NCBI GenBank assembly: GCA_000002445.1
Contig: CM000207.1
Span: 1,024,001-1,088,000 of the forward strand
Length of the DNA stretch: 64,000 nucleotides
Direction of reading: 5' to 3'
Source of the DNA: Trypanosoma brucei
Lineage: Eukaryota
Shown: one piece after another, positions 30,043 to 63,186 of the stretch
How the letters are laid out: every line of letters starts with the position of its first letter
How positions within the stretch are numbered: the first letter of the stretch is position 1
Notes under the pieces: model-generated
What the model saw: only the letters and a program-made list of their open reading frames with translations
Databases searched by the model: none
Told to the model about the DNA's origin: nothing
Program-made: the position numbers and the translations under genes

Positions 30043-30278
30043 GTTCAATAGGCAAACACGCAAGTGCACCCGCAGCAATCGATAAAAGAGTTTTCGGTTC
30101 CCCACCGAAACAGCGGTGTTTTGCACCGTGGTTTCAGAGGCAAAGAATATTTGTGATCTCGCAACCGATTCTCCCTTTTTTTATTAATTCCGTTAGTCCC
30201 TACGCGTGCATTCATTCAGACCTAAAGGCACAAGTCTACAACAGTCGGCAAAAAGGAAGAATCGGCGACGGCAGCATT

Positions 30279-36591: not shown

Positions 36592-37470
36592 ATGCACAAG
36601 CAAGGGTTGACATACAAATATGGGAATGAGCCGCGAGTTTTTCCTGAGAGACGGAAAAGGGAGCGGCCGCCGCCTTTCCAACCCCTTGATCCCCAAAGAG
36701 ACCTGGCAGCAACGGCGGAGATTAAATCAGCGGCGCAGACCCTTATGGCAGTGCCCCCCGATTGTTACGGTGCTCAACACAGTTCAGTTAAGCGCCCCGC
36801 GTACGAACACCGCCGCGAGTCATTTAGAAGAAGCGGGCACCGGCGAAGCCAAACAGAAACTGAGCAACTTAGCGTAGAGCAACGCAATTTCACCTCCCGG
36901 CAACAAAATGAAGGATGCAGCACGCAAGATGTAGAGGATGGAGCAGTGAAGACAACGACCCATCAGCCAGAGGTTCCACCGATGGAGGCGAAGCCCCCTG
37001 AACCCAGTCCGCTCCAGGAGCTGTTACGACGAATTATCATATTTGAATTCTCTTCGAAATGCACACAGCGCTCGATCAACGTTGTGCGGACCATTTGTGA
37101 TACACTGTGCAAGAATCCTGCCGGTGTGGTTGAAGCAATGCTAGTCATAGAGGGGTGCTTTGCTGATGCTTTGAAAGAAAGGAACCAGCAAAGACTACTC
37201 CACTATTGGTATATAGTGGACGCCATAATGAAGTTATTCCGGGACAGGCAGCTTATGCTCGAGGCGGTCTTCGTCGCCCTGCCTCATCTTCTTCTTGTGT
37301 ACGTACCCTGGAATAACAGCAAATTGGCCATGGAGCCGTGGTTCAATCGGGAGAAGGACACCGAAAATTATAAAAACTTGTTTAATGTGTGGGAGTCTAT
37401 TGTGCCCGAAAAAATTACAAACGACATCAAGAAACTTTGGCAAGATGGATTCCCTGTGGGAATCCACTGA
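36592..37470 (+). CDS. Hypothetical protein (292 aa) with a C-terminal helical region weakly resembling a CID/ENTH-VHS-type domain
   Basis: ATG at 36592. Basic, low-complexity N-terminal half. The C-terminal half (LQELLRRIIIFEF ... LFNVWESIVPEK) is predicted all-helical. The CID-like assignment is tentative. Confidence 0.65.
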   Translation: MHKQGLTYKYGNEPRVFPERRKRERPPPFQPLDPQRDLAATAEIKSAAQTLMAVPPDCYGAQHSSVKRPAYEHRRESFRRSGHRRSQTETEQLSVEQRNFTSRQQNEGCSTQDVEDGAVKTTTHQPEVPPMEAKPPEPSPLQELLRRIIIFEFSSKCTQRSINVVRTICDTLCKNPAGVVEAMLVIEGCFADALKERNQQRLLHYWYIVDAIMKLFRDRQLMLEAVFVALPHLLLVYVPWNNSKLAMEPWFNREKDTENYKNLFNVWESIVPEKITNDIKKLWQDGFPVGIH

Positions 37471-40400: not shown

Positions 40401-43400
40401 TTGCCATGAAAAAACACAGATCGCCGCATAGGGTCTCGGATAGCCCTAGAAGGCAAGTCCGCTCACCTGACACCATATATGTGGTAGAAGCGGTAAGGAA
40501 AATGGGCAAATTCACCGTGGATAGTTCCGATCAGAGGACATGATAGGGGGCAACTCTTCCAATGGCATTGCACCGAACGACGCACTCACCGTGCACGGGT
40601 GGAAGATAAAGACGACGAACGAAGGCCGCTGGCACAGCATGTGAACGTGGACATTCCATCCTTGAACTGAGTCCTGAGTCGACTAAAATCAAAGGAGCCT
40701 GAAAGGTTTGGGGTGCAGTGTGGAACGTTAGGAAACAACCAAATATCTCGAGGAAAGAGCGAGGAGGAAGGAGGGGCCCTTTGAGGACAACAAATGCGGA
40801 TGCTCAAACAATGAAACAGGCGGGAGTTGCTTAAACTGCATCGAGGTTACCAACCATGGGGTGAGTGGCGCCTTTTGCTATCGCTGGGGAGAAACTGTTG
40901 GGGTCGCGGCGGCGTTTCATAGCCTGGTCAAAATCAAAAAATGAACAGGAAGACTGCGGGACGAGGGTTTCTTTGGGTTACATTTCCCTGTAATTTGGGG
41001 GCAGTTTGTATTAAAATCACTGCCATTTCTTCGTTTGAAGGAGGTTATTTTCCAAGTAACTTTTCCAGAAACGCAGAAATTTCCGTTGTCGCGTCGGAAA
41101 ATAATCCTGTGGATGGCGGCTCACGCGGGGTGAAGGTCTCACCGCCGGACATAGCGAAGGGGACTGTGGGAGGCAGATTAGGGGTGCTTTCAGTACCTCC
41201 TTTTCGCCCGTTTAAAAGCCACTAGCCTCCTTATAATCTAAAGTTAGGATTTTCAATAAGGACCCTCAACAATGCAAATGATGGATATGATGGTCGCAAC
41301 GGAAGTTCGATATGAGTTTTTTTTGTTCCAACACACTCCTTACTTAACAAAGAGGTGGGGTATAGACTATTCTATGGAAATAAGTTAATCGCAGCTAACA
41401 AGGATGTGGCCAGCCCTTCCGCTTCAGCCATCTTGCACCGTTTGGACATGATCATGAAAAGACGGTCGCATGCCCAAAGGCGGGCCAAGGGAGCATCGTG
41501 GTAAAACATGATGTATTCTAAGATATCACCCCCTTGCTTCCCTTTCCGCAACTACTTAGGAAATAGGGCCATTCATCGGATCTTTCATTCGGTGTCGAGT
41601 AGGTTGCCAAATGTTTTCATGCGAAAGCGAAACATTGATCCTTTGTGACTAAAAGCCTCCCCTAATAACCACACCGTAGTATGAAGGTTAGACGGCGGCC
41701 GTTTGACGGTTCTCTGCCGAATGTTTCACGGAATCTCACGTCATATGTGGGAAACTATGTCACTGATTTTGCCTTTAAAAAAAAATGATATGATGGAATA
41801 CTTCTTTATTATTTATTTAATTGCTGCTCAATTTATGTAAACCTTCTCAATCTTTCAATGCATATTTTTCTCGATCCCCCACCATTCCCGTGCTTAGAGG
41901 AAAACGATACTATTTCCCGTGGTAATTTACTTCGTCGTTCCGTGAGCATTTGTTCCCTACCCCAAACAAGCCACTTGTTTCCACATATTTGAACAACAGG
42001 CCCCAATAATCCTTCCAATATTTCCACTGAACTACCGCCCTAACTCTTTTACCTTACACACAATCGGCAACAAAAAAAAACATCTTTCAACGAACTTTTC
42101 TCTGCGTACCAAGAGGTCCGTGGATTGGTGACGGCCCGCCTGCACGGGGCTGCGGGCCCTAAATCATTGCTCAGCCGTTAACGGACCTGCTGCGGGCGAG
42201 ATGGCGCGCTGTTGCCATGGCACTTTCCCTGGACCCACAGCTCGCCAAGCAGGTGGCAGCCACTTGTCCGCTCCCGACCCAGCAAGCCGCTAAACAGTAA
42301 TGTCACGCTGGGGCGGCTGTTATCATCGCGACCTCAGTGCTCTCATTTTTTTTTTCCGCGTCGGTACCCACGCAGGTGGATGAACCCTCCCAGGAGGGTT
42401 TTTACCTGTTGGAAGGGTGAACCTCCTCTGAAATTTTCTTTAAATTTTGCTGTGCGCATACGCTACTACGAAGAAATGCGAAGGAAAGTCAGAAGGGGAA
42501 AGCGGAGGCTGAAGCGTTGAATGGTAAAAAAAAAACATAAAGAGAACAGATATTATTAAAGTGGAAGGTCACAGTTTGAAGTTTGCAATAACAACGAGTG
42601 TCAGCAGCAGCCGGCAGCAGGAATGAAGAAATATTTAGAGAAGTGTTTGTCGTGGGGGGAGAAGGCCGAAGGAGGAAGCGCCTGAGCTTTTTATTGAGTC
42701 TGATACTGTAAATATCAGTGTTCTGCTTTCTTCCCCATCAATTTTTCATTCCTAAACATTGGTTTGCTGGCCTTTTCTCGGTGAAACGAAACTGCGAGGT
42801 GGGCGCTTTTCATTTGTCTTCAAGTTTCCCCCTTACAAAGCTCCTCAACAGTTGGTCTTATTCTGGAACGACCTTACAGTTTAGCCATCTCTATTCCCCA
42901 GCACCCTCTCCCAGTACAACACATGACCCTTTCTTTCCCCCTCTTTCGTCCCGCGCGCATCTCAAATCTACCCTCCGCGTTGTCCAATATATGTGGAAAG
43001 ATGCTCAGTGTCCTGCTGCACGGTTTCTTTTATGTTTCGGACAAGGTTTGCACTAATTTTCCAAAGTTTCCTATCCACGCCCTTTTTGAGGTCCACAGGC
43101 ATCACACATTTTCCCCACTTCTCCTCTAGATCCTCCCCAAGGACCAATGTTTCCCTCCTTCCTGGTACTCTCGAAAACCAACTGACCTCCCTCCATCAGA
43201 CCATTTCAATATTCAAAGCACATCCTCCGATAACTCCCAGCACTGCTGAAAAACACTCCTGAACCACCCAGTCGAAAAATAATCACAATTAAAAACGGCC
43301 CCTTTATCCCCCGAATTTGCTTTATATACAGCGCTTCGAACTCTTTTGTACCGCCTTTCCCATGGCGATGTCAATCATATCCACGTTGCGGCATGGCCCG

Positions 43401-44253
43401 CCACTCCGCTCAGGTGATGAAAGGCAAGCACCCGCATCTTATTCCGTTGGAGTGGATCGCGGCGGAAGGGCTTCAGCACCACACCAAAGCTTAGACTATG
43501 ACAAATGCGCTACACAGCAGGCGCCATCATAGGAGGGTCCCTGGGCACGTTCTGACTTCCCGCAAACGGTGCCATCCGCAGGAAAATGCTGGGCAGTGCA
43601 GACGTCAATTAGAATCCCGGGTGCTTTTTTTTTCGGTATAAATTGGAACGTTGCTGCGCTCTTAAACGAAGTGAGCAGCACCCGTCACCGCGTTGCCTTC
43701 AGCCGCGATGCAAAGAGAGATATACCTATTCCGATCCCTGAAGATATCCTTCTGGAGGTGAACTTCTCGAAGGGTTCATTACACGATCATTTCCATTTTG
43801 CGGTATGTCCCATACAAATACTCGAACTAACACAAGCCTCCGCTTTTCCCCTCGTCGAAAAGGAGGGTACGCCAGAGAAAAACTTGACGATCTCCTTCAG
43901 GATGGTCCACGAGTATTTGGTGACGATCCCAACTTTCATTCTCTTGTGCCATAGATGTCTCCCCCTATGCGGTGGAAGTGGCTTCACAGCTCGACTAAAC
44001 GCAGAAAATAAAAACACCGCCGGAAAGACCCACGAAACTGTGTGTTAAGACTTGGGCCAGGGGCGCTGGTCCCACATACGGTGTAATTTCTTGAAAAGAC
44101 TGTTTTGTTGCGAAAAGGAGCCCTCAACCCACGGCGTAAAGCTGCCGTTCGATCATATTCTTCCACGGCCACGTCGGGTCGGACGAGCCGCTATTTTCAC
44201 TGCAAATATCCTTACAAGCATCGCATCAGCGGAAATACCATAACTTGTGGGAA

Positions 44254-44805
44254 CTAGAACTCGCCACGCAGGGGAAAACTGAGACGATTAAGGAAGAGGG
44301 ACATATCCACAGTCACGACGACGCGCTTGCAATCATAGTTTGCGAGGCGCCGATCGCCGCAGTCTGGCAGGTAGAACAATATCCATAAACCTTTCCCCAT
44401 GGACAAAGAGGTGGCTGAAATGGAAAATAAGATTAATAACACCACGGAAAACACTGAACGGAATCGTCCTGTAACGCAGGGTCGACCGCATTTATTACCG
44501 TGCTCGATTCCCAACGTTGTCGAAACAAGTTCTTCAAAATGAGCATATCTGACAAGAAAAGCCTGAAACGTCAGCAGGCGAGTTGTAGCCTGCTCAGTGG
44601 AAACCTCGGCATGAGGATCGCACTGCACGAGAGAAGAATAGGAGCATTTTCCTTGTAACTTCGACCACTTCTGGAGGGTCAAATTCTGATCTGTCCTGCT
44701 TCCCGAGCGGCACTCACCATCACAAGGATGATAGAAGAATTTTGTGAGAGCACCTGACAACTGATTGACCAGTGAAAGTACCAGAAGTAATTTAAAAAAC
44801 GTCAT
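44254..44805 (-). CDS. Candidate minus-strand gene: 183-aa protein with an N-terminal signal peptide, 8 Cys and an internal hydrophobic segment
   Basis: The only sizable minus-strand ORF not overlapping a + strand gene. Starts MTFFKLLLVLSLVNQLSGA. On the minus strand, about 75 nt upstream of the ATG, there is a T11 tract followed by AG dinucleotides (seen on the + strand as 'gcaaaaaaaaaaacg' at ~44863-44877). Confidence 0.4.
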   Translation of the reverse strand: MTFFKLLLVLSLVNQLSGALTKFFYHPCDGECRSGSRTDQNLTLQKWSKLQGKCSYSSLVQCDPHAEVSTEQATTRLLTFQAFLVRYAHFEELVSTTLGIEHGNKCGRPCVTGRFRSVFSVVLLILFSISATSLSMGKGLWILFYLPDCGDRRLANYDCKRVVVTVDMSLFLNRLSFPLRGEF

Positions 44806-47730
44806 CCTCTTTAATGCCTATTCCGGAGCATCTCATACAGTGGCCCAACGCGGAGGGTAGTGCAAAAAAAAAAACGTAAAGTTGGTGGAGAAACCCGCCC
44901 GCCCTCCGTCCAACCTCCTTTCAAACAGTGCTAAAGGCGGCACGATACTTAAGCAAACCACTTTCCTAACGGAAATAACTCAAAAGAAAATGGGCAAATG
45001 GCACAGCACCAGGCCCCCTCCACTGTTAGTAAGCGCAGCGAACTTCCTTCCCACTTTGAGGGAGCGTCGCAAGAGATAATATCCAACCCCGACTTGGCAT
45101 CTTCGAAAGCGGCCTGGCGATAAGGAGAGGAAATGAAGATGTGTCTTCAGAAGGGACTGAATATTGCAGCCGTTATAGGAATCCGCATTTACTCCGGCAG
45201 ATTGATCATGAACAAAACAGGGTGTGTGGTGCTCGGGGGACGTTTTGATCTCACAGTTGCGCCGGCAGTCGCTGGCAACCGCTTCAAAATGAGCTTTTCT
45301 TCCCTTCGCTCAAATATTGATGATCTTTTGTTTGTTTTACCTCCTCTCACAAATGAAGAACACGGTGGTGAACGCAAACTGGCGTTGCCACTCTCCATTA
45401 CTCCAAGCATGCATCGCACAAATACACGCGCACAGCTTGTGTATATACGATATCGCGTGATCATGCAGGGCTTTTCAAATATCAGCGACACACCATTGAT
45501 ATTCATGCCTTCTTAACTCTTTTTCACCCAATCTATCATTCCACATCATTTCTCCCACTAGAACACAATGGTATGGAGTAATAATGTGAGGTGAAGCACA
45601 TACATATGATGTGAGAAGGAGAGGTGTGACACTGTAGTGTTTCATCCGAAGGAAGAGTTAACAAATAACATATACAGTAGCCACACCTCCCATATTGTGC
45701 ACATAATGCCTCATGGTATATTATTAGTATGTACAGGGGAAAACTATGTCGATATATTATAACAAACCTTCACAGCCACAAAATATACGGTTTGCATTAT
45801 TCTCACATTTCTAGAAAAGCGGCAAACACAAAGGAGCTTATTATCATATTCCTATAAATTCCCCATACGTGTGCAAGCTGTCCCCTCAGCATATAATATA
45901 TTGTGATATGGTGAACATAACCCCCCACCAGTGCGACAAATATGGGATCTATGTAAATATAAATAAATATACACTTGCCTCTTGGACATATTGGATGTCA
46001 TATACAACAGCATTTGAGTTGTATTCTCTGTTAGGCCAACTTATGTATATATAATAGAGTGAGGCCTTTCCAGACTGTGATGAAATGAGTTGGTGTGTAT
46101 TAATGACAACTCTCCCAAGGCATACGGAAGAGATACTATTTCCCCTGAGGGCTGCCGAATCTTTCCTCTGGAACTTTGCCCTGGGGGCTCCGATGCATTT
46201 TGACGCCCTAAGGGATCCAGCAGCGCATTTTCGTTCTGAACCGGCAATGTCCACACTTCAGCGATGCTGGTGGGCTGCGTCCATACTTCGTCCTATGCAG
46301 CCTCCTTTCGTGAGATGGCCTCGCATTTCGACTCGGCTCCGTTTTGCAAGATTCCCGCCTCCCCGCAAACCTCCAGTACACGATGAAAGTTGAGGCATTT
46401 CTTTTTCCCATTGAACATTCAACTTCCGCGCGTGGCACTGCACCGCCAAGACTTCAGTCGCTTACTAGATGCAAGTCCATTCGTGTCATTCCAATATGCC
46501 GGTAACCATGGAGAAATGGTCATTCCACTTTCCAAAACCCTCACGTACGTGCGTTTTACTTCTGATGGAGGAGAAAATAAAAGAGTTACTGCGTCCTCAA
46601 CAATCATATTTACGAAGTAACAATGCCTCGCTATCCGATGAACGACCACCCGCATTCCGTTAGTCTCTTTAGGAAATGGCATTTGGGTTCTTATTGATAA
46701 GCAACAACAAAACACATTTGCATGCATTTATATTCGAAAGGATGCGTGCGCGAGGTTACTTTACCCGACTTATGTTATTTGTCGATGCCGTTTCGATATA
46801 ACAAAAAAAAAGGAGGTTGGCTCTTTTTCTGAGTTCTAGGCAAGGTGCTCGACGCTGACACATTGGTGAGGCAAGTGCCGAACTGTGGAAAGACTATGGT
46901 TTGATCAGCGAATTGCTGCGGGGGATGCGGCGGTGGTTGGCACGGGCTCGTGTTGCTGTCGCCTGAAACGTTCTCTGCGATGTCACCGCCGGTATGAGTT
47001 TGTTGTGGTCGGGATGCTCGGATGCCGATTCTTTGTGGGCTTTGAGAAAGAACGTTTTGATTCCCCACCGCTGGTAACCAGGGATGGGTGTCACGTCTAG
47101 TATCTGATTGTGGTAGGAAGTGGAACAATAGAAATGTAGGTTAGTGGTTTCCCAATCGGGCTGGTAACAGGCTCAAATTGTTTAAAAAAATCAGTTTGTG
47201 AGGTAGACTACCGGTGTGAATAGGGGAGTTCTTCCGCATTTGACTTCTTTGACTGCTTGCTGATCTTACGTTCTACGTACCTTTTCCAAGAAACTGAAAG
47301 AGGGATCGGTGCCCTTACTATGCAGAAGAGGTATTGTTGGGCATCTGCTATTCGCCTTAGTGTTTGTGATTTTATCATTTAAGAAATTGGTGCATTGCTC
47401 AGTAGCGCCTGAAGTGTGTGTGGGGATTAGTTGATACTGTAACGAAGAAAATCGTTTTTGTTATTTCGTGAGCATTACAGCTTTTTATTTTTAAAGGTAG
47501 AAGTTCTTTTCAACCTCTTTGGAGTGCCGGATACAGTATGAATGACTACTAATTGAGGGTTGATTCCTGCGTTGCCTTCCTAACAAAATGCTTTCCAGCA
47601 CTTCATCTACTGTTTCATTTGTTAGTAACTCTTTTTTGGTTTTTGTGACCCTGATTATTCATGAGGGAGATGAGGGGTAGTGAATTACGTGGTTGTGTTG
47701 CTGTGTTTAGGCAAATGTACGTGACTCGAG

Positions 47731-47768
47731 TGTATGTATGTATGTATGCATGCATGTATGTATGTATG

Positions 47769-47802
<34 letters not shown>

Positions 47803-47803
47803 G
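47731..47803. repeat. Compound (GTAT)n-(GCAT)2-(GTAT)n-(TA)n-(GT)n microsatellite
   Basis: tgtatgtatgtatgtatgcatgcatgtatgtatgtatgtatatatatatatatatatgtgtgtgtgtgtgtgg read directly. Confidence 0.9.
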
Positions 47804-48511
47804 TGTTCTCTTAAGAATGTGTACCTACACCACACGCGTTGTACATAGAGTTAGATGTGGAATTACATTGTATTGGTGCGATCATATCACTCAGCACCGT
47901 TGTTTTTGTTCGTATTTCATTTGTCTGATTGCTTTATTACATATTTCCCTATTGATGTGTTATCAAGGGGCATACAAGGTTATGTCTGTGTCGCTTTGGC
48001 GGACATTTTACCGCGAAGCGGAGCATAGTTGAAGTGAATGTGGCGCGCTAATAACCTGAGATATGTTACTATTGTTGGTACGGTGCGTGGTAGATTGTTG
48101 CGTCACATTCCCACCGTTGTTTGGATGGAATGCCCATGCACGTGATATTTGCGGCTCCTTTCCTCCTTTTTTAACATAATGATTTTTATGGCAGCGGAGG
48201 GTCCTTGCAGCATTGCCATTTGACGTGTTGCACGCAGACCCTTCAGAGTAAAGGACCGTTTGTTAATTGACGACGGGCTATGCGAGGTGCAGTGCTACTT
48301 TCTCTACAAGGACAAAGGACGTGTGTGCGTGTGATATTTAGTTCTTTCATTTTAATTGCATTTCCCCTTGACTAACGTTATTTGATGGCACGCCCCCTGC
48401 AAAGCACGATATACAACAAAAAATTTTCTTATCTGCAGCAGTGAAAAGTTTTTATTTTTTCTGATCCATTTGACTTTTAGTATAAAGGGCAAGGTAAAGT
48501 TTGGTTACCCG

Positions 48512-48513
<2 letters not shown>

Positions 48514-48540
<27 letters not shown>
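48514..48540. repeat. (GT)13 microsatellite
   Basis: tgtgtgtgtgtgtgtgtgtgtgtgtgt read directly. Confidence 0.9.
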
Positions 48541-48543
<3 letters not shown>

Positions 48544-50968
48544 CATTGGTTTGTTGAACTCAAGGGATTTTCAAAGTTTTGTTTAGAGATCTTTTTTTAG
48601 TTACTACGAAGATATTTAATTTTCCCAGTCCTTTACGGCTCATTTATAGATAAGATGCTTTGTGTAACTTCAGCTATATTTCTTTTGGACAGAATAAAAA
48701 ATAGCTGCGTACATTCCACTCTTTCCCACAATATAAGGCACGTCACTTTTTATATTCGCACGATATGCCGTCTCTGTTTCCCAACACATGTGCTTAGTTT
48801 CACCGACTCAGCTGAACGCTACGGTTTGGTTTGGTTGTGCGTCCTACTTGGTTGTCATCTCTTCCTGTTTTCGTTTATAACTAAGGAATACACAGAAGGA
48901 TGGACTAGAACTCAAAACGCTTTGTGCCGTCCGTCAAATAGATAGATGCCTCTCGCAACGCCCTAAGTTCTTGATGCCTTGTGAAAGGCCAATGAAGGTA
49001 TTAACACAGAAACTTCAATGCAGGAACCAAGGGAAGAATGGAGATAAGTTGGTACTGGAGAGATGTTTTTCGTGTTGTCTTTTTGTTACCTTCGTCTGAT
49101 GCGTTCACAGTGGTTTGGGTATTATTAATGGCGTACCCTGTAGCTTCTGGTATTTTTGGCTGCGTCAGTCGGCCAAAGTTTCAAGTTTTTTTTAAAATAT
49201 TTGGATACCAAACGGACAACGTAAGGTGGCTGGAGCATAAACAAAAACACTCTATTATTCACAACGCTCTTTCTTTCGGTTTTCGAACCAACTGGAGGAT
49301 AACGAATGCTGTACCGGTGACGCAGTGTCGCGGGCAATGCAATGGACCTAAAAAGCACTGAGTACCAAGGTTACTAGCTGACCACTTGTTAGGGGTGTGG
49401 GTTCGTCTCCCATGTGGCGCTTTCCTCTCCCGGGGAATGGCAGCACGTTAAAGGACTACAAGTGCTGACCATTGAAAGTAAATGACACGAAGGCGAAATC
49501 AAACAGGATGCGGTAGCATCATCTCCATGTCCACGCACCATGAAATTTGGAGAAGCGATGTAAAGTTGTATCATTCTTTTATTGGCTCCAGCGCACGTGT
49601 CTTACATGTTGGATGCTTTGGTGTATGTTTCCCATGAGGTGACACATTCGTCGACCTCACGGGACCTTTCGTGTTGTTTATACCACCAATCACCACAATA
49701 GGAAGAAAAAGCAATCATCTTCATGTGAACCAATGGCCGTGCGACTAAGTAAAAGCTTAGCCGTGTATGGAAGATGCCACCTTCATTTCTTGTCGTGTAG
49801 TGACAACATCAATGATTACTATATGTGTTCTGTTTCATCTTCCACCGCAATGATCGCTTTTACGATTCCCGCTTATGCGGGTGGATTGCATGTATGTTTT
49901 GATGAGGTGATGTTTGATCCTATTCGTTTGAATCACTTATGATCGCAGGTTCAAGATGTTCGATACATTTGCCAATGGGAGATGACACAGCACCCTCTTC
50001 TATTGATCATTATGGTCCATAATTGGCGTGTATTCCCTTTCTTTTTCCCTTTCTTTTTTTTTTTGCAAAAAAAAAAAGGAAGCTCATGTGAACTATGCAA
50101 CACCCACTGTCTCGTGGAGGGGCTCTAAATTCTATGTTCTTAGTAACAATCAATTCTTTGCCTTCCCCCAAGGTGTCGGTGAAAGGTTGACACCAGCTAT
50201 CGTCTTTAGTGTGTTGTCCGCCACGGGAAATGCTGCAAGTGGAAGGTGTTATGCCGTTTAGCTTGGACGACACCATTGGGTGATTTTCAGGTATGAAACT
50301 TACGACTCATTAGTCGTTACATGGAGTGTAAAACGGATGAATGTACCTGCCGTTTTGCCCCACACGGACCGTTGCAAAAGGCACAAGACACATGTTCGGC
50401 ACTCCAGCAGTTTGAAATGGGGGTGACACTTCGGAAGACATGCCGTCCTCAGAGTTTTTTTTTGTAGGAACGAATGGAGAGGCTTTTGAGTGTTGGGAAA
50501 ACACGGGATAGTCTTCGAAGGAGGAGTTACTGAAAGTCAGTAGGTGGTGGTGTGCCCTCTTGCTCTCAGCGCACTTTACCGATTCCAGTGTTAAGCAACA
50601 TTATGGCAAGCCCTGATTATTGGAGCAATTCTGGGGAGGCTCGACCTGCGGGTGTCTCCTCGGAAGTTGCTATGCCAGTTATCACTTCCTCTGTAGAATA
50701 TAATGTTTATGGTTATTGTTGGTCTATGGAACTATGTCTGTTGTTTGTGTGGAGTATATGCTGGTCGCAACTTTTTTTTGCTTTTGTGTGTGCGTGTGCG
50801 GATCACTGCTGTTGAATGTGCTCACCTTCATTTTCCCTACAGCAAACTGCTGATCCGACATCTGATTTTGTCTTTTCCCCCATCGAAAACATTTACATAT
50901 CTGTCGGCATTTCTTTATAAATTAAATATTCGGCATAGTTTGCGCGTTTCGTATCCATTTGGTGAGTG

Positions 50969-51415
50969 ATGTCTCGAGTGTACGTTGGTAACATTGAAAA
51001 ACGTGCAACAAAAAAGGAACTACTTGAGTTCCTGAAACCAATGGAGGAACATATCGAGGACTCGTGGTTAGCTCGGCGACCTCCGGGGTTCGCCTTCATC
51101 ACAATTGCTCCGTCTCGTGCGTGTGAATTCGTGGAGACTTTCAACGGAAAGGAGTTTCGTGGAAAGGCTCTTTTGGTTGAGCTGTCCACAATGTCGTCAC
51201 AGCGGAAGGACGGAGAGAACCGCCGCCGCCGAAGCAGTGATAGCAGACGTGATAGCAGTCGACGCAGGAGGAGGTCTGGAAGCCGCTCAAGGCACAGTGA
51301 TAGACGGCGCGACCGGAGTCGCAGCCGCAGTCACCGGCGGGACCATTCAAGAGACAGAAAGCGCCGTTGCCGCTCACGCAGCCGTAGTAGCTCTCAGGGG
51401 CCTTGTTCCCCGTGA
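50969..51415 (+). CDS. SR protein with one RRM and a C-terminal RS domain (SRSF3/SRSF7-like)
   Basis: The ORF track begins at GTG 50966; ATG at 50969. RNP2 VYVGNI, RNP1 PGFAFITI, and WLARRPPGFAF...LVELS is collinear with SRSF3/7. The C-terminus is RS/RD dipeptide-rich (RRRRRSGSRSRHSDRRRDRSRSRSHRRD). Confidence 0.85.
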   Translation: MSRVYVGNIEKRATKKELLEFLKPMEEHIEDSWLARRPPGFAFITIAPSRACEFVETFNGKEFRGKALLVELSTMSSQRKDGENRRRRSSDSRRDSSRRRRRSGSRSRHSDRRRDRSRSRSHRRDHSRDRKRRCRSRSRSSSQGPCSP

Positions 51416-51758: not shown

Positions 51759-53714
51759 ATGGAAGGAAAAAATGAGAGAGACCAATACCAGGATTTGGCA
51801 CTCCACTTGAGTTTCTCATCTGGTACAGAGTTGAGCGATTCATATGTAATGTCCTATAGGGGCAGCGATGGGTGTTTTGGCGATGCTGTGTTCAATGGTG
51901 CCGCACCCGCTCGGAACGTCCTCTTTGGGAACATTCCATGCAAACAAAGAGTGGAAAAGTTTAGTATTCAGGATAGCAGCTTAGCGAATCGGTGTAACAT
52001 GCAGGTAAACTTAAAGCGTGACACACCCGTTCTTCAAGACCCTTCGGACACATTTGCAAGGATGAATCAAGTGATGCACCAAACTTTGAAGTATGTAAAG
52101 GAGGTGGAAAGTATTGATTTTAGTAGCAGTAACATAATAGATTTCAACGGTGAAATCATGGAGGACCCAAGGAGAGTGTTTCTTTCGGTATGCACCAGTG
52201 TGTTTGCTAACTTCTCGTTCTGCTCTCAGTTAGATGTAGAAAAACTTCTGAGTTTTCTATCAGATATTTTCGAGAACTATTCTGAAGACAATGCTTATCA
52301 CAACGCGGTCCACGCGGCTGACTCGGTTCAAATGTTGTACCTCATATTGAGGGAGAAACCTGCAATCCTGTTATTTACCAACGAGGAGATTCTTGTTTGC
52401 TTTTTGGCTACGCTTTGTTTGTCATTCATACACCCAGGTGTAACAGACGCGTTTCTGGCACGCATTGACCACCCGCTAACCCTTGTTTACGGTGACGTTA
52501 CAACCCAGAGGTCAGCAAGCCTTACGGCCTTCCTCTACTTCCTTAATAGAGAGGAGAACCGTTTCATAGATCTGTCCTCCAGCGCTGGCACTCGTCCCAT
52601 TTCCCAATATTTGAGGGAGTTGTTGGTTGAAACGGTTCTGGCAACTGCTCCTCGATCCCGTAGGACGCTGCTGAGTGATCTTCAGGATGTGGCGGCGTCT
52701 AATGTGGTATCGGTGGATGACCTTAGGTTCCTGCTCTCAGCGATTGTGACTCTATCGGATAGTGCGCTAGCATTGCGCCCGCGGGCACAATTTATCAGCT
52801 GGTCGCGGCTACTTTGTGCTGAGTGGCTGAGCGAGGCAACTCAAGAAGAGAGGAGAAGGATGGACCCACTCGTGCCGAACCTCCAAAAGCGAGTCGGTGA
52901 AGGTGGACTCACGATGGTATCGGATTACTGCCGGGTGTGGCTACGACCTGTGGCTGCTGCGACCCGTGCACTGGTTCCGCAGGACCTTTACGACAATTTG
53001 GAGCGAAACAGTGATGTCCCCACTTTTGGTGAAGTTGCAGCCTTCTCTGTGCCGGATGTTTCGGCTGATAAGCCATGGAGTGATGGAAGTTTATCTGTTT
53101 TTGAGATTCTTCGCAAGGTGACTATGCATGCAAAGTCTTTGGACCGAAAGGCCTCAAAGCGTGCCATTCTCAACGCAACATGTGGGCGTCTGGTATCGGC
53201 CCCCGCGTCGCAATTGTCATCACCGTTCCATGCACCTTCTGAACCGTCGATTTCGTGCTCTCCGGTGGAGAAATTGGTTTCTCATCCAAGCCGGTGCGAG
53301 CATTACTTCTCGTTTTTGCGGCTTTACGACACTTACGACAGAGAGGGCCGTCCCGCAACCGAGTTTGCAGAGCAGCTAGTTTTTTTAGCGATGCAGCTGA
53401 ATCCTGATTATGTTGGGCGTTACGCTCGCGAGGGCATAGATGCGTCTTCTAAGGAGGACTGCAGCAAGATTGCGTCCCTTATTATCCAAAGTGAAGAGGC
53501 ACCATCCACCGCGGAGGTGATAGCATCCCCATTGCGCGGGGCTGAGCAGACCGATGGCTTCATTTTGCGTTTGATGGAGATGTACACCGAACGCGACAGA
53601 AACAGAAATAATTGCTCCGTCCAGAATAGCCACACAAACCTTCAGTCGACTTCGAGGTGCCTCTTGCCTTGCTCCAACCCCGTATACGGGGGTATGGACC
53701 GTGGAAGAAAGTAG
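51759..53714 (+). CDS. Class I cyclic-nucleotide phosphodiesterase-like protein with a degenerate catalytic site (predicted non-catalytic PDE homologue)
   Basis: The track start is TTG 51750; ATG at 51759. YHNAVHAADSVQ (52296-) matches the PDEase_I YHN..HAADV.Q motif. At the HD..H position the protein has LSFIHPG (L-S at 52419-52424) instead of HDVDHPG, and YGDVTTQRS replaces YND..LENHH. Confidence 0.8.
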   Translation: MEGKNERDQYQDLALHLSFSSGTELSDSYVMSYRGSDGCFGDAVFNGAAPARNVLFGNIPCKQRVEKFSIQDSSLANRCNMQVNLKRDTPVLQDPSDTFARMNQVMHQTLKYVKEVESIDFSSSNIIDFNGEIMEDPRRVFLSVCTSVFANFSFCSQLDVEKLLSFLSDIFENYSEDNAYHNAVHAADSVQMLYLILREKPAILLFTNEEILVCFLATLCLSFIHPGVTDAFLARIDHPLTLVYGDVTTQRSASLTAFLYFLNREENRFIDLSSSAGTRPISQYLRELLVETVLATAPRSRRTLLSDLQDVAASNVVSVDDLRFLLSAIVTLSDSALALRPRAQFISWSRLLCAEWLSEATQEERRRMDPLVPNLQKRVGEGGLTMVSDYCRVWLRPVAAATRALVPQDLYDNLERNSDVPTFGEVAAFSVPDVSADKPWSDGSLSVFEILRKVTMHAKSLDRKASKRAILNATCGRLVSAPASQLSSPFHAPSEPSISCSPVEKLVSHPSRCEHYFSFLRLYDTYDREGRPATEFAEQLVFLAMQLNPDYVGRYAREGIDASSKEDCSKIASLIIQSEEAPSTAEVIASPLRGAEQTDGFILRLMEMYTERDRNRNNCSVQNSHTNLQSTSRCLLPCSNPVYGGMDRGRK

Positions 53715-57039: not shown

Positions 57040-57757
57040 TGCCTTTGTGGAACAGAAATTTTGATGCAAAAGGGAAGGAAAGAAAGTGGTAGCAGTTAAG
57101 GGATTGGGGAGGAGAGACTGTAGCTGATTAGTTATAAAAATATGATGAGGAAAATAAATAAACGTGCATATGTAGTTTTCCTTTCTTTGTTCCACTCTGC
57201 CCCATTTGTTGTGGTATTTTTAGCGCGCACTTTAGCGTCTGTTGTTCCTAACGTTGTCACTAGCTCGCTCCATATTCGTGTTCACGAGTATGTTGCCTTT
57301 CATTCGTGCATGACGAGCAAGCAAATTAGTTGCCAATAAGTGACGTGGTGCCGAATGTACAAATCCCCCTAAGAAAAAGGGCACCGAAGGATAAAAACAG
57401 GAGGGGAGGAGAAGGGGTAAAGTGTGAATGGCTGATTTTATTGTACGATTTCCCCTTTTTTTTATTTTTTCCTGCCTTATAATCCTAGGGCATAACGCCA
57501 GCGGAGTAATTTTGATACATCGGTACACTTCTATACACGTGCGTACGCACATACAGGGAAAGAGGGGTGAGGGCGTTATGAGAGGCTGGAAGGGTAGGGA
57601 TAGTTACGCTACCACTGCGTGCATTTGTTATGTGCTTTGGCCGTTTTTCCCCAAGTCCTTTGACGTACGAACCCTGACCCCTCTTTTCTCTCTTACCTCT
57701 TTATCCTCATTTGCACTTTTTTTTTTGCTTCAAAAATGTGTACCACCCTTTAGAGCA

Positions 57758-58579
57758 ATGTCTTCGGCTAACTCGGAGGTACGTAACGGTGGTTCATCTT
57801 CAGTTGCCGCCGCGCAACCCCGTGCGGCATCGCCCGCGAAGATCCCCGTGAAGGTACCCTACTCACTTGCCAAAGTTCCAATGCCGCGGCTTGTACCGGC
57901 GAAGATGCCGGCACCAAAGCGAGCAGCTGAGAGCGAGGCTCAACATCGCGGCAACAGGGAAGACAGTGACGACGCTCTGCTTGAGTCCTCCGCACCCTCT
58001 AAAAAACCAAAGAAGGAGGAGTCAAAAAAGGCTCCTCTAGTGGAAACGGAGTCTAGCAGTAGCAGCGAGTACAGTTCTTCTGACAGCGATGATACCGATG
58101 CTAGTGACAGCGAAAGCGAGGGCTCGAAAACGTCTACAGTTTCCGATTCAAGTGACATTTCGGACGACGAAGAAAGCGTTTCTGAGGACAATCTGACATT
58201 TTTTGAATTAGCCGAGAGAAGCGGCCTCATGAATGATATCAAGAATAAGGTAAACTCTGGGGAAGGGGAACAGGAGGAGGAGGAGGAGGTGCACATCGAC
58301 GGGAAGCCACCACGGCCCAAGTTTCTTCGTAGCTTTCCTCGCGATATTGAGGCGGAAATCGGGAAACACGAGAAACGCCTCAAGGATGTTGAGAATATGT
58401 TAAAAATGAAACAGGATAATAAAACTGTTTCGTTGGGCACAAGTAAGGTAAATTATATAGACCCACGGATTGTGTGCTCCTGGGCCAACGAGAACAACGT
58501 CCCCATTTCGAGGCTGTTTTCTGCGACACTTCAAAAAAAGTTCCCTTGGGCACTGAAGGCAAGGGACTTTACGTTTTGA
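57758..58579 (+). CDS. TOP1S: DNA topoisomerase IB small (catalytic-tyrosine) subunit of the kinetoplastid heterodimeric TOP1
   Basis: The C-terminus LGTSKVNYIDPRIVCSWANENNVPISRLFSATLQKKFPWAL is collinear with the human TOP1 C-terminal domain [42 protein letters not shown], including SKxxY (Tyr codon 58454-58456). The ~270-aa size and Ser/Asp-rich N-terminal half fit the trypanosomatid two-subunit enzyme. The in-frame ATG at 57758 (MSSANSE...) is chosen over the track start 57428, which lies in a hydrophobic pyrimidine-rich stretch. Confidence 0.85.
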   Translation: MSSANSEVRNGGSSSVAAAQPRAASPAKIPVKVPYSLAKVPMPRLVPAKMPAPKRAAESEAQHRGNREDSDDALLESSAPSKKPKKEESKKAPLVETESSSSSEYSSSDSDDTDASDSESEGSKTSTVSDSSDISDDEESVSEDNLTFFELAERSGLMNDIKNKVNSGEGEQEEEEEVHIDGKPPRPKFLRSFPRDIEAEIGKHEKRLKDVENMLKMKQDNKTVSLGTSKVNYIDPRIVCSWANENNVPISRLFSATLQKKFPWALKARDFTF

Positions 58580-60865: not shown

Positions 60866-62484
60866 GAGCCCCATTAGCATTCAAACGGAAAACTGTGCAC
60901 GTGTATTAGGGGAGACGTTCCTTTTCTTGTTGGTGCTTGAATTTGTATCCTTTGGGATGAGCAGCGTCTGCTTCATGTTGTTCTTGTTCCTTTTCATGGT
61001 TCCAGAGGCCGACATTTCCCCACGAAACAAAGAGATCATTGAACAGCATCCCCGAGTCCTGCCACTCTTACTTTTTAAATCATTTGCCGCGTTTTGCGCC
61101 GATGGAGGGCACATGACCGCCCCCTTAATTATGTGAGGTTCTGTACCTTATTATTATTTTTTTTTGATTTTTAACCTTCGGCTTTATTTATCGTTATTAC
61201 TGGCTTTCTTTTTTTGTTGTGTGTGTGTGTGACAGCTGCCACTGTCCTGAATGTAATCGCTTCAACTGTGCCTTACTTACTGATCCTCCCACCACCACGT
61301 CCTTTTTCTCTGTTGTTTTGGACGGAGAAAATATTTGCGTGTGTGAAAGGAGGTTCGTAGTCATCGGGCAACAGCTCCCTTCAGTGATGGTGAACCAGGC
61401 ATGCTTTTACTTACTTTTTTTTCAAGTTGCGTTAACAACGCATTTAAGTTGACGTCTGTGCGTCTATTAGTTGCTGTACATTTTTATCCCTTTCGGTTTT
61501 GGTCTTGCTGGTGGGTGTTGTTTGAGCAACTAAGTGGGAATGCACCTTGTCGGAATTTTGTTGTTATTTTATGCGCGAAACAGGCACCGCTCAATAGCTT
61601 TAATGTAAATATGGCTTCTTTCTCTTATTCTTTGTGCCCCCTGGCGGCGTGCCTATTCTTCTTTTGTTGTTCTGTTTTTCGGTATCCTTTCGACGCTTTT
61701 CACTTTATTGAGCAAGTCGCTTTCAGCGTCTGTTTCCATTTCCACTTCGAACGGCGTACTATTGTGTTTTACTTTTCCTTGGGTACTTGTTTTCTTGGCG
61801 TGTGCTGTTACACCCTGCCATATCTTTTTTAACACACTCTTCATTATTCTACTTTTTTGCCCCCTTCCACTTCTTAAATGTTTGTTATTTATTTGCTATT
61901 ATTATTATTTTTTTTTTTGCACCTCTCATGTAAACTCGTGCGAAGTACGGGGTGGAAAGAACGGTCTACACTTCCCACCCTCTTATTGTCCGTCTTTAAT
62001 CCAGACGTGGCATTTACCAATATCAACAATGACAATGGGCGTTATCACTGCTTACTTCAGTGGTCTAATTAATCTTGTTCGTTTAACTCCGTACTCGCTG
62101 TTGAGACAATGCAGAGTGTGTGCTACTTTTCTTTTATTTCCCTTGCGCCCCGTGCAAGTCGTTGAGACACATGGTTTCCCTGCTCTCACCGACGTTGGTG
62201 AAGGTGCACACACATCGCGGCGGTGGTACCCGCCGCAAAACATGGCGCTTGGAAGCATATTTTTGAATAGGAGCGGATTACCGCTTGCTTTACTTCCTGC
62301 GCTCCGCTCCTGCATACGCTAACCATTATCATTAATATAACTGCACGATAAGGCGGTGTCTTCCCATCACCTGTCCTCTTCACGCATCTGTGTGCAGACT
62401 TCTGTCCTGAATAAACGCCATTGGTTTCCCTTTCCATTTTTTACGTTTAAATTAAAAGTTGTGTGGGCGGTGTTTAAGGCTACG

Positions 62485-63186
62485 ATGGAACCTAAGAGCG
62501 TCGAGGAGTACAGCCAGCAGAACTACTGGATTGGCAGATATGAAGTGGAGGAGCAACACGACTGGTTTTTGTCGGTTCGACAACCAACCATAGCTGCCCT
62601 GTGTGATGAATTGCTGAAGGTGTTTCAGCAGCGTGAGAGGCTGCACTCCGCCGACGGTAACGTGGAGGGGGACCAACCAGCTCTACGTGTACTTCACTTA
62701 GGCACTGGTAATTCATCGCTCTGTATGGATCTGTACGAGGCCGTACGTGAGCGTCAACTTCCATTCGCACTGCATCAGGTAGCTATGGACTATGCGCCAA
62801 ATGTTATTGAGAGGATGCAAAGCAAGTATTCACCTGATATTCTTCCCAACGCCCAGTGGATCGTCGGTGATGTACGCAAGCTGGAGGAATTCCGTGAGTA
62901 TGGTCCATTCGATGCGGTGATCGAAAAGGGAACGATGGATGCCATTGAAGCGGACAAAAATAGACCGGAGATGAAAGGGGATGTTGAGGCTATGCTCCAT
63001 GGTGTGGACACGCTTCTGAAGCACGCGAAAGGTTATGGCGCATTTTTGCAGGTTACGTGGGTGGCACCGCATCTCCGATTGCCATACACAAAAGGAGATG
63101 CGTTCGCGTGGGGTGACCAGGTGCGTTATAGCCTTCTTGGGGAAAGTGATATTTACAGGCTGTTTGTTTACACGGTCAGGGAATAA
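62485..63186 (+). CDS. Class I SAM-dependent methyltransferase, EEF1AKMT4 / METTL13-N-like (putative eEF1A lysine methyltransferase type)
   Basis: The track start is GTG 62356; the first ATG is at 62485. YSQQNYWIGRYEVEEQHDWF, motif I VLHLGTGNSSL, acidic post-I, and FDAVIEKGTMDAI are collinear with the ECE2/EEF1AKMT4 MT domain (Y..YWD.RY....EWF ... VL.LGCGNS ... FD.V.EKGTLDA). Confidence 0.8.
   Translation: MEPKSVEEYSQQNYWIGRYEVEEQHDWFLSVRQPTIAALCDELLKVFQQRERLHSADGNVEGDQPALRVLHLGTGNSSLCMDLYEAVRERQLPFALHQVAMDYAPNVIERMQSKYSPDILPNAQWIVGDVRKLEEFREYGPFDAVIEKGTMDAIEADKNRPEMKGDVEAMLHGVDTLLKHAKGYGAFLQVTWVAPHLRLPYTKGDAFAWGDQVRYSLLGESDIYRLFVYTVRE

What the first reader, a model, noticed from the sequence alone, without database searches (positions are those of the whole stretch)
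51759..53714. Phosphodiesterase catalytic-domain homologue lacking the HD metal-binding dyad (pseudo-PDE)
YHNAVHAADSVQ is a near-perfect PDEase_I signature, so homology is not in doubt. The invariant HDxxH motif is L-S-F-I-H (HD to LS at 52419-52424), and the downstream YND...LENHH region is YGDVTTQRS. Loss of the His-Asp that coordinate the catalytic metals predicts no hydrolytic activity. This would be a cNMP-binding or regulatory PDE-like protein outside the canonical PDE set. The protein also has a ~180-aa N-terminal region without GAF/FYVE signatures and a long C-terminal extension.
Basis: partly seen in the sequence, partly recalled or inferred. Interest (0 to 1): 0.7.

Follow-up and report, generated by a model that had tools for sequence, protein, structure and literature searches.

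The report
Dead phosphodiesterase of the trypanosome flagellum
This Trypanosoma brucei gene (Tb927.9.6880) encodes a flagellar protein that has the fold of a cyclic-AMP-degrading enzyme but lacks most of the residues needed for catalysis, so its database label "cAMP-specific phosphodiesterase" is almost certainly wrong, and it is a sixth, overlooked member of the parasite's phosphodiesterase family.

Summary
ORF 51759-53714 (+), 651 aa, matches Pfam PDEase_I (82 bits, E 6e-23). It keeps YHNAVHAAD but has L-S where the enzyme's H-D metal dyad sits (52419-52424). The window is T. brucei TREU927 chromosome 9. The gene is Tb927.9.6880 (UniProt Q38EQ0), between RBSR1 and the topoisomerase IB small subunit. 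It is not one of the five canonical kinetoplastid PDEs (A, B1, B2, C, D).

The loss goes well beyond HD. Across 27 family members, from Trypanosoma to Bodo saltans and unnamed environmental sequences, none keeps H200, D203, H233, D272 or N321 (PDE4D2 numbering). Only two keep the purine-recognising Q369. So this is an old, conserved pseudo-PDE clade.

The protein is expressed: it is detected by mass spectrometry, and a TrypTag-based study lists it among 151 paraflagellar-rod proteins. That module has no Pfam or structural relative and occurs in only 23 of 1.84 billion representative proteins.

My best reading is a non-catalytic scaffold or regulator in the flagellar cAMP compartment. Canonical cNMP binding looks unlikely. 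No activity was measured. I found no paper that describes it as inactive.

The parts
51759..53714 (+). Complete ORF of Tb927.9.6880 (651 aa plus stop), annotated 'cAMP-specific phosphodiesterase, putative'
   Evidence: 100% identical to XP_827050.1/Q38EQ0. The proteomics table links Tb927.9.6880 to Q38EQ0 (8 peptides, 72.9 kDa).
51759..52019 (+). Poorly conserved N-terminal region (aa 1-87), predicted with low confidence or disordered; no GAF or FYVE domain
   Evidence: pLDDT 20-33; block identity 0.33-0.58 for aa 1-80; no domain
52020..52163 (+). Conserved pre-domain block (aa 88-135): PVLQDP..TF..MN..MHQTLKYVKEVESIDF, with a predicted helix at aa 95-110
52173..53078 (+). Class I PDE fold core (aa 139-440); the Pfam PF00233 match covers aa 180-400 (52296-52958)
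   Evidence: 82 bits; 10-residue block mean pLDDT mostly 52-88, falling to 35-46 over aa 241-280; Foldseek against PDE4D: probability 1.0, TM normalised to target 0.70-0.74
52296..52322 (+). Retained YHNAVHAAD motif (aa 180-188). H181 corresponds to general-acid H160, H185 to Zn ligand H164, D188 to D167.
   Evidence: Kept in 23, 24 and 24 of 27 family members respectively.
52419..52433 (+). Degenerate HDxDH motif, here L221-S222-F223-I224-H225. Metal ligands H200 and D201 are replaced by Leu and Ser (52419-52424), and D203 by Ile. H204 is kept as H225.
52488..52520 (+). YGDVTTQRSAS in place of YNDxxxLENHH (E230 to R251, H233 to S254)
52644..52661 (+). TAPRSR in place of TDMSKH (T271 kept as T296, D272 to A297, H276 to R301)
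52758..52769 (+). DSAL in place of DLSN. D334 keeps Zn ligand D318 in T. brucei, but this position varies across the family (13 of 27). N321 becomes L337.
52914..52928 (+). MVSDY in place of QVGFIDY. The purine-recognising Q369 is replaced by M386 (HMMER alignment) or V387 (MAFFT alignment), and clamp F372 by a gap or Y390.
53136..53177 (+). Motif S-L-D-R-K-A-S-K-R-A-I-L-N-A (aa 460-473), 12 of whose 14 positions are invariant in all 15 trypanosomatid orthologues. It is a basophilic-kinase-type R-K-A-S site (S466 at 53154-53156) inside a low-confidence helix (aa 444-473).
   Evidence: (R-x-[AV]-S-x-x-A-I-[LM] also in bodonid-like members)
53292..53621 (+). Family-specific C-terminal alpha-helical module (aa 512-621) containing RxEHYFSFLRLYD, QLVFLALQL, APTTAE and TDGFILxLMxMY
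   Evidence: pLDDT mostly above 90 when folded alone; 23 hits in 1.84e9 representative proteins; the long hits of about 640-930 aa carry the match near their C-terminal end, and all 16 new hits whose sequences I read belong to this family; no Pfam; no structural relative

Best explanation
Tb927.9.6880 is a catalytically dead paralogue of class I cyclic-nucleotide phosphodiesterases (a pseudo-PDE). It is conserved across Kinetoplastea and resides in the flagellum, in the paraflagellar rod (PFR).

Shown:
- It has a PDE fold, but the binuclear metal site is dismantled. H200, D201, D203, H233 and D272 are all substituted.
- The nucleotide-recognition residues Q369 and N321 are replaced by hydrophobic residues.
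- The family has kept these substitutions since before Bodo and the trypanosomatids diverged.
- The protein is made. A TrypTag-based study lists it as a PFR protein.

Inferred:
- It does not hydrolyse cAMP or cGMP.
- It acts as a non-catalytic scaffold or regulator within the flagellar cAMP/purine-nucleotide compartment, which also holds PDEB1/B2, PKA, adenylate kinases and AMP deaminase.
- The family-specific C-terminal helical bundle and the conserved pre-domain helix are the likeliest docking surfaces.
- The invariant R-K-A-S motif is the likeliest regulatory input, by phosphorylation from a basophilic kinase such as PFR-resident PKA.
For: Fold and homology.

Catalytic-residue table (27 family members against PDE4D2):
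- H200, D203, H233, D272 and N321 are kept in 0 of 27.
- Q369 is kept in 2 of 27.
- D201 is kept in 15 of 27, and in no Trypanosoma.
- Several members have also lost H164 (to R), H160 (to R) or H204 (to N/Y/Q). That pattern is what relaxed selection on catalysis would produce.

A real, constrained protein: Trypanosoma orthologues are 59-69% identical. The ORF is intact. Mass spectrometry detected it with 8 peptides. The T. cruzi orthologue TcCLB.506625.80 is developmentally regulated.

Not a canonical PDE.

Flagellar/PFR location: TrypTag-based PFR proteome; GO components axoneme, ciliary plasm, cytoplasm. The same study's reciprocal-best-BLAST table lists no orthologue in the aflagellate Perkinsela.

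C-terminal module: confidently folded and unique to the family.

PKA R and C subunits are in the PFR.
Against: - No enzymatic or binding measurement exists for any family member.
- H160, H164, D167, H204 and E339 equivalents are strongly retained. Former pocket sites are more conserved than the domain average (0.649 against 0.535, P=0.0017). That could mean residual chemistry or ligand binding rather than pure scaffolding.
- Some non-Trypanosoma orthologues (P0012, P0014) keep three of the four Zn ligands.
- The AF2 model has low confidence (pLDDT below 50) over aa 224-227 and 237-281, next to the former metal site.
- The PFR assignment rests on light microscopy of tagged protein, reported in a preprint table.
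- No phosphorylation of S466 was found in the supplementary tables I could search. Those tables were truncated when stored.
- No interaction partner is known.
Confidence: 0.72

Rival explanations
1. Non-hydrolysing ligand sensor. The dead PDE pocket still binds cAMP, cGMP, AMP or another nucleotide or nucleoside, and it reports occupancy to the flagellum. This is the first reader's 'cNMP-binding' option, and it would work like degenerate EAL domains that serve as c-di-GMP receptors in bacteria.
For: Pocket-lining and former catalytic positions are more conserved than the rest of the domain (P=0.0017). H160, H164, H204 and the invariant E339 equivalent persist. The hydrophobic clamp is partly kept (I336 to L/M, F372 to Y in 19 of 27). 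It sits in a cAMP-rich compartment. The EAL-receptor analogy comes from my general knowledge, not from a tool result.
Against: The glutamine that reads the purine (Q369) is V/L/I/A in 25 of 27 members, and N321 is F/L in 22 of 27 and never Asn. The metals that hold the phosphate are gone. The 12 substituted positions taken alone are not significantly more conserved than background (P=0.16).
Confidence: 0.2
2. Still an active phosphodiesterase, or another phosphohydrolase, that uses a non-canonical metal site. On this reading the current database annotation would be right.
For: H181, H185, H225, D334 and E355 are present in T. brucei. Non-Trypanosoma orthologues also keep D201. The annotation as a cAMP PDE has been used in the literature.
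Against: T. brucei keeps two of the four Zn ligands, and the Asp that bridges both metals is lost in all Trypanosoma. H233 and D272 are absent family-wide, and D203 is also absent family-wide. Different lineages have lost different remaining residues (H164 to R in Bodo, H160 to R in others), which does not fit a conserved alternative active site. The published annotations are purely homology-based.
Confidence: 0.06
3. A decaying, functionless gene relic.
For: Loss of catalytic residues.
Against: The ORF is intact. Orthologues occur across Kinetoplastea with invariant blocks. The protein was detected by mass spectrometry. It has a specific flagellar localisation. Expression is regulated in T. 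cruzi and Leishmania.
Confidence: 0.02

Closest known systems
Human PDE4D catalytic domain (for example PDB 1OYN, 2PW3)
   Same: It is the best sequence match among solved structures (74 bits, E 5e-20) and a strong structural match (Foldseek probability 1.0, TM normalised to target about 0.7). Both have the all-helical class I PDE fold. The YHNxxHAAD motif, H204 and E339 are conserved.
   Different: The query lacks H200, D201, D203, E230, H233, D272, N321 and Q369. It has no UCR regions. It carries a unique C-terminal helical module and an R-K-A-S motif downstream of the domain.
Kinetoplastid flagellar PDEB1/PDEB2 (Tb09.160.3590/3630)
   Same: They are on the same chromosome and in the same compartment (flagellum/PFR), and they have the same domain family.
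   Different: PDEB1/B2 are 930/925 aa with two GAF domains and are the cAMP-specific PDEs known to be essential in T. brucei. Tb927.9.6880 is 651 aa, has no GAF domain and has a degenerate active site. It is absent from every PDEA-D list.
T. cruzi PDEC catalytic domain (PDB 3V93)
   Same: It is a solved kinetoplastid class I PDE that matches the query (50 bits, E 1.3e-12).
   Different: PDEC has a FYVE domain. The query scores lower against it than against human PDE4D, so it is not a recent copy of PDEC.
Degenerate signalling-enzyme domains used as receptors or scaffolds (pseudokinases; degenerate EAL/GGDEF domains such as FimX and LapD). This analogy comes from general knowledge.
   Same: The enzyme fold is retained and the catalytic residues are lost. 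The domain is conserved under selection and sits in the same pathway as the active paralogues.
   Different: They belong to different fold families. For this protein no ligand or partner has been shown.

Membership tests
Class I 3',5'-cyclic nucleotide phosphodiesterase (Pfam PF00233, HD superfamily) | Sequence match to the PDEase_I profile above the curated threshold | tested here: met
   82.2 bits against a cut-off of 24.8, E 6e-23, aa 180-400. All 15 orthologues match.
Class I 3',5'-cyclic nucleotide phosphodiesterase (Pfam PF00233, HD superfamily) | All-helical PDE catalytic fold | tested here: met
   The AF2 model matches PDE4D with Foldseek probability 1.0 and TM normalised to target 0.70-0.74.
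Class I 3',5'-cyclic nucleotide phosphodiesterase (Pfam PF00233, HD superfamily) | H-D-x-x-H signature and the four Zn ligands (H164, H200, D201, D318 in PDE4D2) | tested here: not met
   The query has L221-S222-F-I-H225, so only H185 and D334 remain of the four ligands. H200 is kept in 0 of 27 family members.
Class I 3',5'-cyclic nucleotide phosphodiesterase (Pfam PF00233, HD superfamily) | Second-metal and water network residues (E230, H233, T271, D272) | tested here: not met
   The query has R251, S254, T296 and A297. H233 and D272 are kept in 0 of 27.
Class I 3',5'-cyclic nucleotide phosphodiesterase (Pfam PF00233, HD superfamily) | Invariant purine-recognising glutamine (Q369) and hydrophobic clamp (I336, F372) | tested here: not met
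   Q369 becomes M or V, depending on the alignment, and is kept in 2 of 27. The clamp is partly kept as L and Y.
Class I 3',5'-cyclic nucleotide phosphodiesterase (Pfam PF00233, HD superfamily) | Hydrolysis of cAMP or cGMP | not testable with these tools
   This needs recombinant protein. I found no published assay.
Canonical kinetoplastid PDE set (PDEA, PDEB1, PDEB2, PDEC, PDED) | Being one of the five named loci or their orthologues | tested here: not met
   The gene is Tb927.9.6880/Q38EQ0, next to RBSR1 and TopIB(S) Tb927.9.6940. The canonical loci are Tb927.10.13000 (A), Tb927.3.3340 (D), Tb03.27C5.640 (C) and Tb09.160.3590/3630 (B1/B2).
Canonical kinetoplastid PDE set (PDEA, PDEB1, PDEB2, PDEC, PDED) | Accessory domains: GAF-A/B (PDEB) or FYVE (PDEC) | tested here: not met
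   The only Pfam domain is PF00233.
Pseudoenzyme (dead homologue of an enzyme family) | Clear homology to an enzyme, loss of essential catalytic residues, and retention under purifying selection with expression | tested here: met
   Homology. Losses. Conservation from Bodo to Trypanosoma with invariant blocks. Protein detected.
Paraflagellar rod proteome of T. brucei | PFR-type localisation of the tagged protein | not testable with these tools
   Taken from the literature. It is listed among 151 PFR proteins derived from TrypTag images. The GO components are axoneme, ciliary plasm and cytoplasm.

The most novel reading that the evidence does not exclude
Kinetoplastids carry an ancient pseudo-PDE anchored in the paraflagellar rod. 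It acts as a non-hydrolysing organiser or sensor of the flagellar cAMP microdomain. Its family-specific C-terminal bundle docks it in the rod lattice. Its dead PDE core binds a nucleotide or an active partner such as PDEB or PKA. Phosphorylation at the invariant R-K-A-S site switches it. This would be a new type of cAMP-pathway component in organisms that have few known cAMP effectors.
Probability: 0.2. Interest if true: 0.7.

Novelty: new variant of a known kind. Interest (0 to 1): 0.5.

Why it matters
Trypanosomatid PDEs are drug targets, and flagellar cAMP signalling controls social motility and passage through the tsetse fly. The field counts five PDEs, and downstream cAMP effectors in these parasites are largely unknown.

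This sixth PDE-domain protein is conserved in every trypanosomatid examined and in the free-living Bodo. It sits in the same flagellar structure as PDEB1/B2 and PKA. It almost certainly cannot hydrolyse cAMP. That has three consequences:

1. It corrects an annotation already used as if real. One example is a Leishmania purine-stress pathway map. Another is the GO term for cAMP PDE activity.
2. It means the gene should not be counted as a redundant PDE activity in knockout or inhibitor studies.
3. It offers a candidate scaffold or effector for the flagellar cAMP microdomain, together with a new, confidently folded C-terminal domain that is restricted to this family.

Tried and rejected
- **Literature by gene ID.** I searched for Tb927.9.6880-6930, Tb09.160.40xx/50xx, TcCLB.506625, LmjF/LmxM/LinJ.04.00 and Q38EQ0, and by concept for 'catalytically inactive', 'pseudoenzyme' and 'PDE-like'. 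No paper discusses the protein's active site. The single 'PDE-like' hit referred to localisation patterns of PDEB.
- **The look-up of encoding contigs for P0001.** Nothing on record.
- **CARP3 interactome supplements.** They mention Tb927.9.6920 but not 6880.
- **Phosphoproteome supplements.** Only the protein-level row was found and the files were truncated when stored, so whether S466 is phosphorylated remains open.
- **Calmodulin-type basic amphipathic helix for aa 444-473.** The hydrophobic moment is not above shuffled controls, so I rejected this.
- **Identity with PDED or PDEA.** Rejected from locus IDs and chromosome.
- **Which active PDE clade is the sister group.** I did not resolve this, because I did not fetch PDEA/PDED sequences.
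- **The 13-kb ORF-poor region upstream.** No Pfam, Rfam or tRNA features.
Full report
**What is there.** The window carries an uninterrupted + strand ORF from the ATG at 51759 to the stop ending at 53714 (651 aa).
- It matches Pfam PDEase_I (PF00233) at 82.2 bits, against a curated cut-off of 24.8, with E 6e-23 over aa 180-400. No other domain is found.
- Among solved structures, human PDE4D is the best match by sequence (74 bits, E 5e-20).
- An AlphaFold2 model built on 15 orthologues superposes on PDE4D catalytic domains with Foldseek probability 1.0 and a TM-score of 0.70-0.74 normalised to the target.
YHNAVHAADSVQ is aa 180-191. L221-S222 fill the H200-D201 columns at exactly 52419-52424. 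YGDVTTQRSAS replaces YNDxxxLENHH.

**Which gene it is.** The protein is 100% identical to T. brucei brucei TREU927 XP_827050.1 / EAN76720.1 / UniProt Q38EQ0, annotated 'cAMP-specific phosphodiesterase, putative'.
- The downstream ORF at 57428-58579 has the C-terminal topoisomerase domain. It is the topoisomerase IB small subunit, Tb927.9.6940 / TcCLB.506625.110 / LmjF04.0060.
- The upstream RRM plus Arg/Ser-rich ORF (50966-51415) corresponds to RBSR1 (TcCLB.506625.70).
- The T. cruzi gene between them, TcCLB.506625.80, is called a cAMP phosphodiesterase.
- A proteomics table links Tb927.9.6880 directly to Q38EQ0.
- The Bodo saltans protein I recovered with my own C-terminal profile (P0032 = CUG61985.1) is the accession another study lists as the Bodo orthologue of Tb927.9.6880.
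- The five canonical T. brucei PDEs are elsewhere or look different. PDEA is Tb927.10.13000, PDED is Tb927.3.3340, PDEC is on chromosome 3, and PDEB1/B2 are 930/925-aa GAF proteins.
- Reviews and a 2026 phylogeny still list only PDEA-D. So this is a sixth PDE-domain gene outside the accepted nomenclature.

**How degenerate the active site is.** I aligned 27 family members with PDE4D2 and an active protist PDE.

| PDE4D2 residue | Kept in family (of 27) | Usual replacement |
|---|---|---|
| H200 | 0 | L in 17 |
| D203 | 0 | A/V |
| H233 | 0 | S in 22 |
| D272 | 0 | A/S/V |
| N321 | 0 | F/L |
| Q369 (reads the purine) | 2 | V/L/I |
| D201 (bridges both metals) | 15, none in Trypanosoma | S or G in Trypanosoma |
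| D318 | 13 | variable |
| H160 | 23 | R |
| H164 | 24 | R (for example in Bodo) |
| D167 | 24 | E |
| H204 | 22 | N/Y/Q |
| E339 | 27 | none |

Different lineages have lost different members of the retained set. That argues against a conserved alternative catalytic site. Former catalytic and pocket positions as a group are more conserved than the domain average (0.649 against 0.535; permutation P=0.0017). The 12 substituted positions alone are not (P=0.16). The region is therefore still constrained, but mainly through the retained His/Asp/Glu cluster.

**It is a real, expressed, flagellar protein.**
- Trypanosoma orthologues are 59-69% identical. Phytomonas, Angomonas and Leishmaniinae-like ones are 35-42% identical.
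- Mass spectrometry detected the T. brucei protein (8 peptides, 20.9% coverage, 72.9 kDa). Its GO components are axoneme, ciliary plasm and cytoplasm.
- A TrypTag-based study lists Tb927.9.6880 among 151 paraflagellar-rod proteins. By reciprocal best BLAST it has orthologues in T. cruzi, L. major, Leptomonas, Blechomonas, Phytomonas, Strigomonas, Angomonas, Paratrypanosoma and Bodo. None is found in the aflagellate Perkinsela, in Euglena or in Naegleria.
- The T. cruzi orthologue changes about 2.8-fold in contrasts reported for the trypomastigote to early-amastigote transition. I did not check the direction.
- LinJ.04.0030, on Leishmania chromosome 4, rose at the protein level under purine starvation. 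It was drawn into a pathway map as an AMP-liberating PDE. I infer from synteny that it is the orthologue.

The C-terminal 'extension' is the most distinctive part of the protein.
- Twelve of the 14 positions of SLDRKASKRAILNA (aa 460-473) are invariant in all 15 trypanosomatid orthologues; the other two (K467, R468) vary in a few. It is recognisable as R-x-[AV]-S-x-x-A-I-[LM] in bodonid-like members.
- The motif fits a basophilic-kinase site: R at position -3, L at -5 and I at +4.
- It lies in a predicted helix of low confidence that is not significantly amphipathic.
- After a variable linker comes a helical module (aa 512-621) with blocks that are invariant or nearly so: RxEHYFSFLRLYD, QLVFLALQL, APTTAE and TDGFILxLMxMY.
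- Folded alone, the module reaches pLDDT above 90 over most of its length.
- A profile search of 1.84 billion representative proteins found only 23 hits. Those of about 640-930 aa carry the match near their C-terminal end, and the 16 new hits I read as sequences all belong to this family.

**Mechanism.** The shown facts are a PDE fold, a dismantled metal and nucleotide site, deep conservation, expression and flagellar/PFR localisation. From these I infer, with about 0.85 confidence, that the protein does not hydrolyse cyclic nucleotides. More tentatively, I infer that it is a non-catalytic scaffold or regulator in the PFR. The PFR also houses PDEB1/B2, PKA regulatory and catalytic subunits, adenylate kinases and AMP deaminase. 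The C-terminal bundle and the conserved pre-domain helix are the likeliest docking elements. The R-K-A-S motif is the likeliest regulatory input.

The rivals are these:
- A non-hydrolysing ligand sensor. This is weakened by the loss of Q369 and N321 but not excluded, given the conserved His/Glu cluster.
- A still-active enzyme with an unusual site. This is unlikely.
- A decaying relic. This is excluded by the conservation and expression data.

**Novelty.** The gene, its annotation and its localisation are public. Its pseudo-enzyme nature, its exclusion from the PDEA-D scheme, the age of the degeneration and the family-specific C-terminal domain are not described in any paper I could search. 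Pseudoenzymes are common, so a dead PDE is not astonishing. It is a useful correction, though, and a concrete lead in a pathway that is short of known effectors. I rate it a new variant of a known kind, with interest 0.5.

Noticed in passing
window 37470-50966: About 13 kb with no ORF of 200 aa or more. The five longest ORFs have no Pfam hit. There is no Rfam family and no tRNA, and only short TGTA/TG repeats. This is unusually long for an intergenic or UTR stretch inside a polycistronic unit, and I have no explanation for it.
   Followed up: partly
window 50966-51415 (+): The immediate upstream neighbour is a small RRM protein with an Arg/Ser-rich tail. It corresponds to RBSR1 (TcCLB.506625.70) by synteny.
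   Followed up: partly
window 57428-58579 (+): Topoisomerase IB small subunit (Pfam Topo_C_assoc, 97 bits), which is Tb927.9.6940. I used it to anchor the window on chromosome 9.
   Followed up: yes
window 17614-25266 (+): A 2550-aa ORF with no Pfam domain at E of 0.001 or better.
   Followed up: no
whole window: Apart from one 262-aa minus-strand ORF (15900-16688) nested inside a longer plus-strand ORF, every ORF of 200 aa or more lies on the + strand, as expected for a single trypanosomatid polycistronic transcription unit. They include a protein kinase (2509-4689), an AlaRS-editing-like tRNA_SAD protein (13570-14976), an FAD-dependent oxidoreductase (28255-30042) and two methyltransferase-like proteins (30153-31295, 62356-63186).
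   Followed up: partly
orthologues P0012-P0015, P0020-P0022 (C-terminal tails); window 53676-53693: Non-Trypanosoma orthologues end in a conserved tail motif, [QR]-[RK]-[DS]-S-P-[IV]-R-[LM]-P-V-x-T-[DE]. Trypanosoma and bodonid-like members instead end in C-x-N-P-[VI]-Y (NPVYGG in T. brucei). These are lineage-specific short linear motifs of unknown role.
   Followed up: no
literature and annotation for Tb927.9.6880 / LinJ.04.0030 / TcCLB.506625.80: The homology-based label 'cAMP-specific phosphodiesterase' and the GO term for 3',5'-cAMP PDE activity have been carried into pathway interpretations. The sequence predicts no such activity.
   Followed up: yes
P0034, P0036, P0037 (environmental ENA assemblies): These are deep-branching family members of unknown organism. 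P0037 still has Q369, F372 and D318 but has S-Q at the HD site. All three lack the RKAS motif. They may represent early stages of the degeneration.
   Followed up: partly
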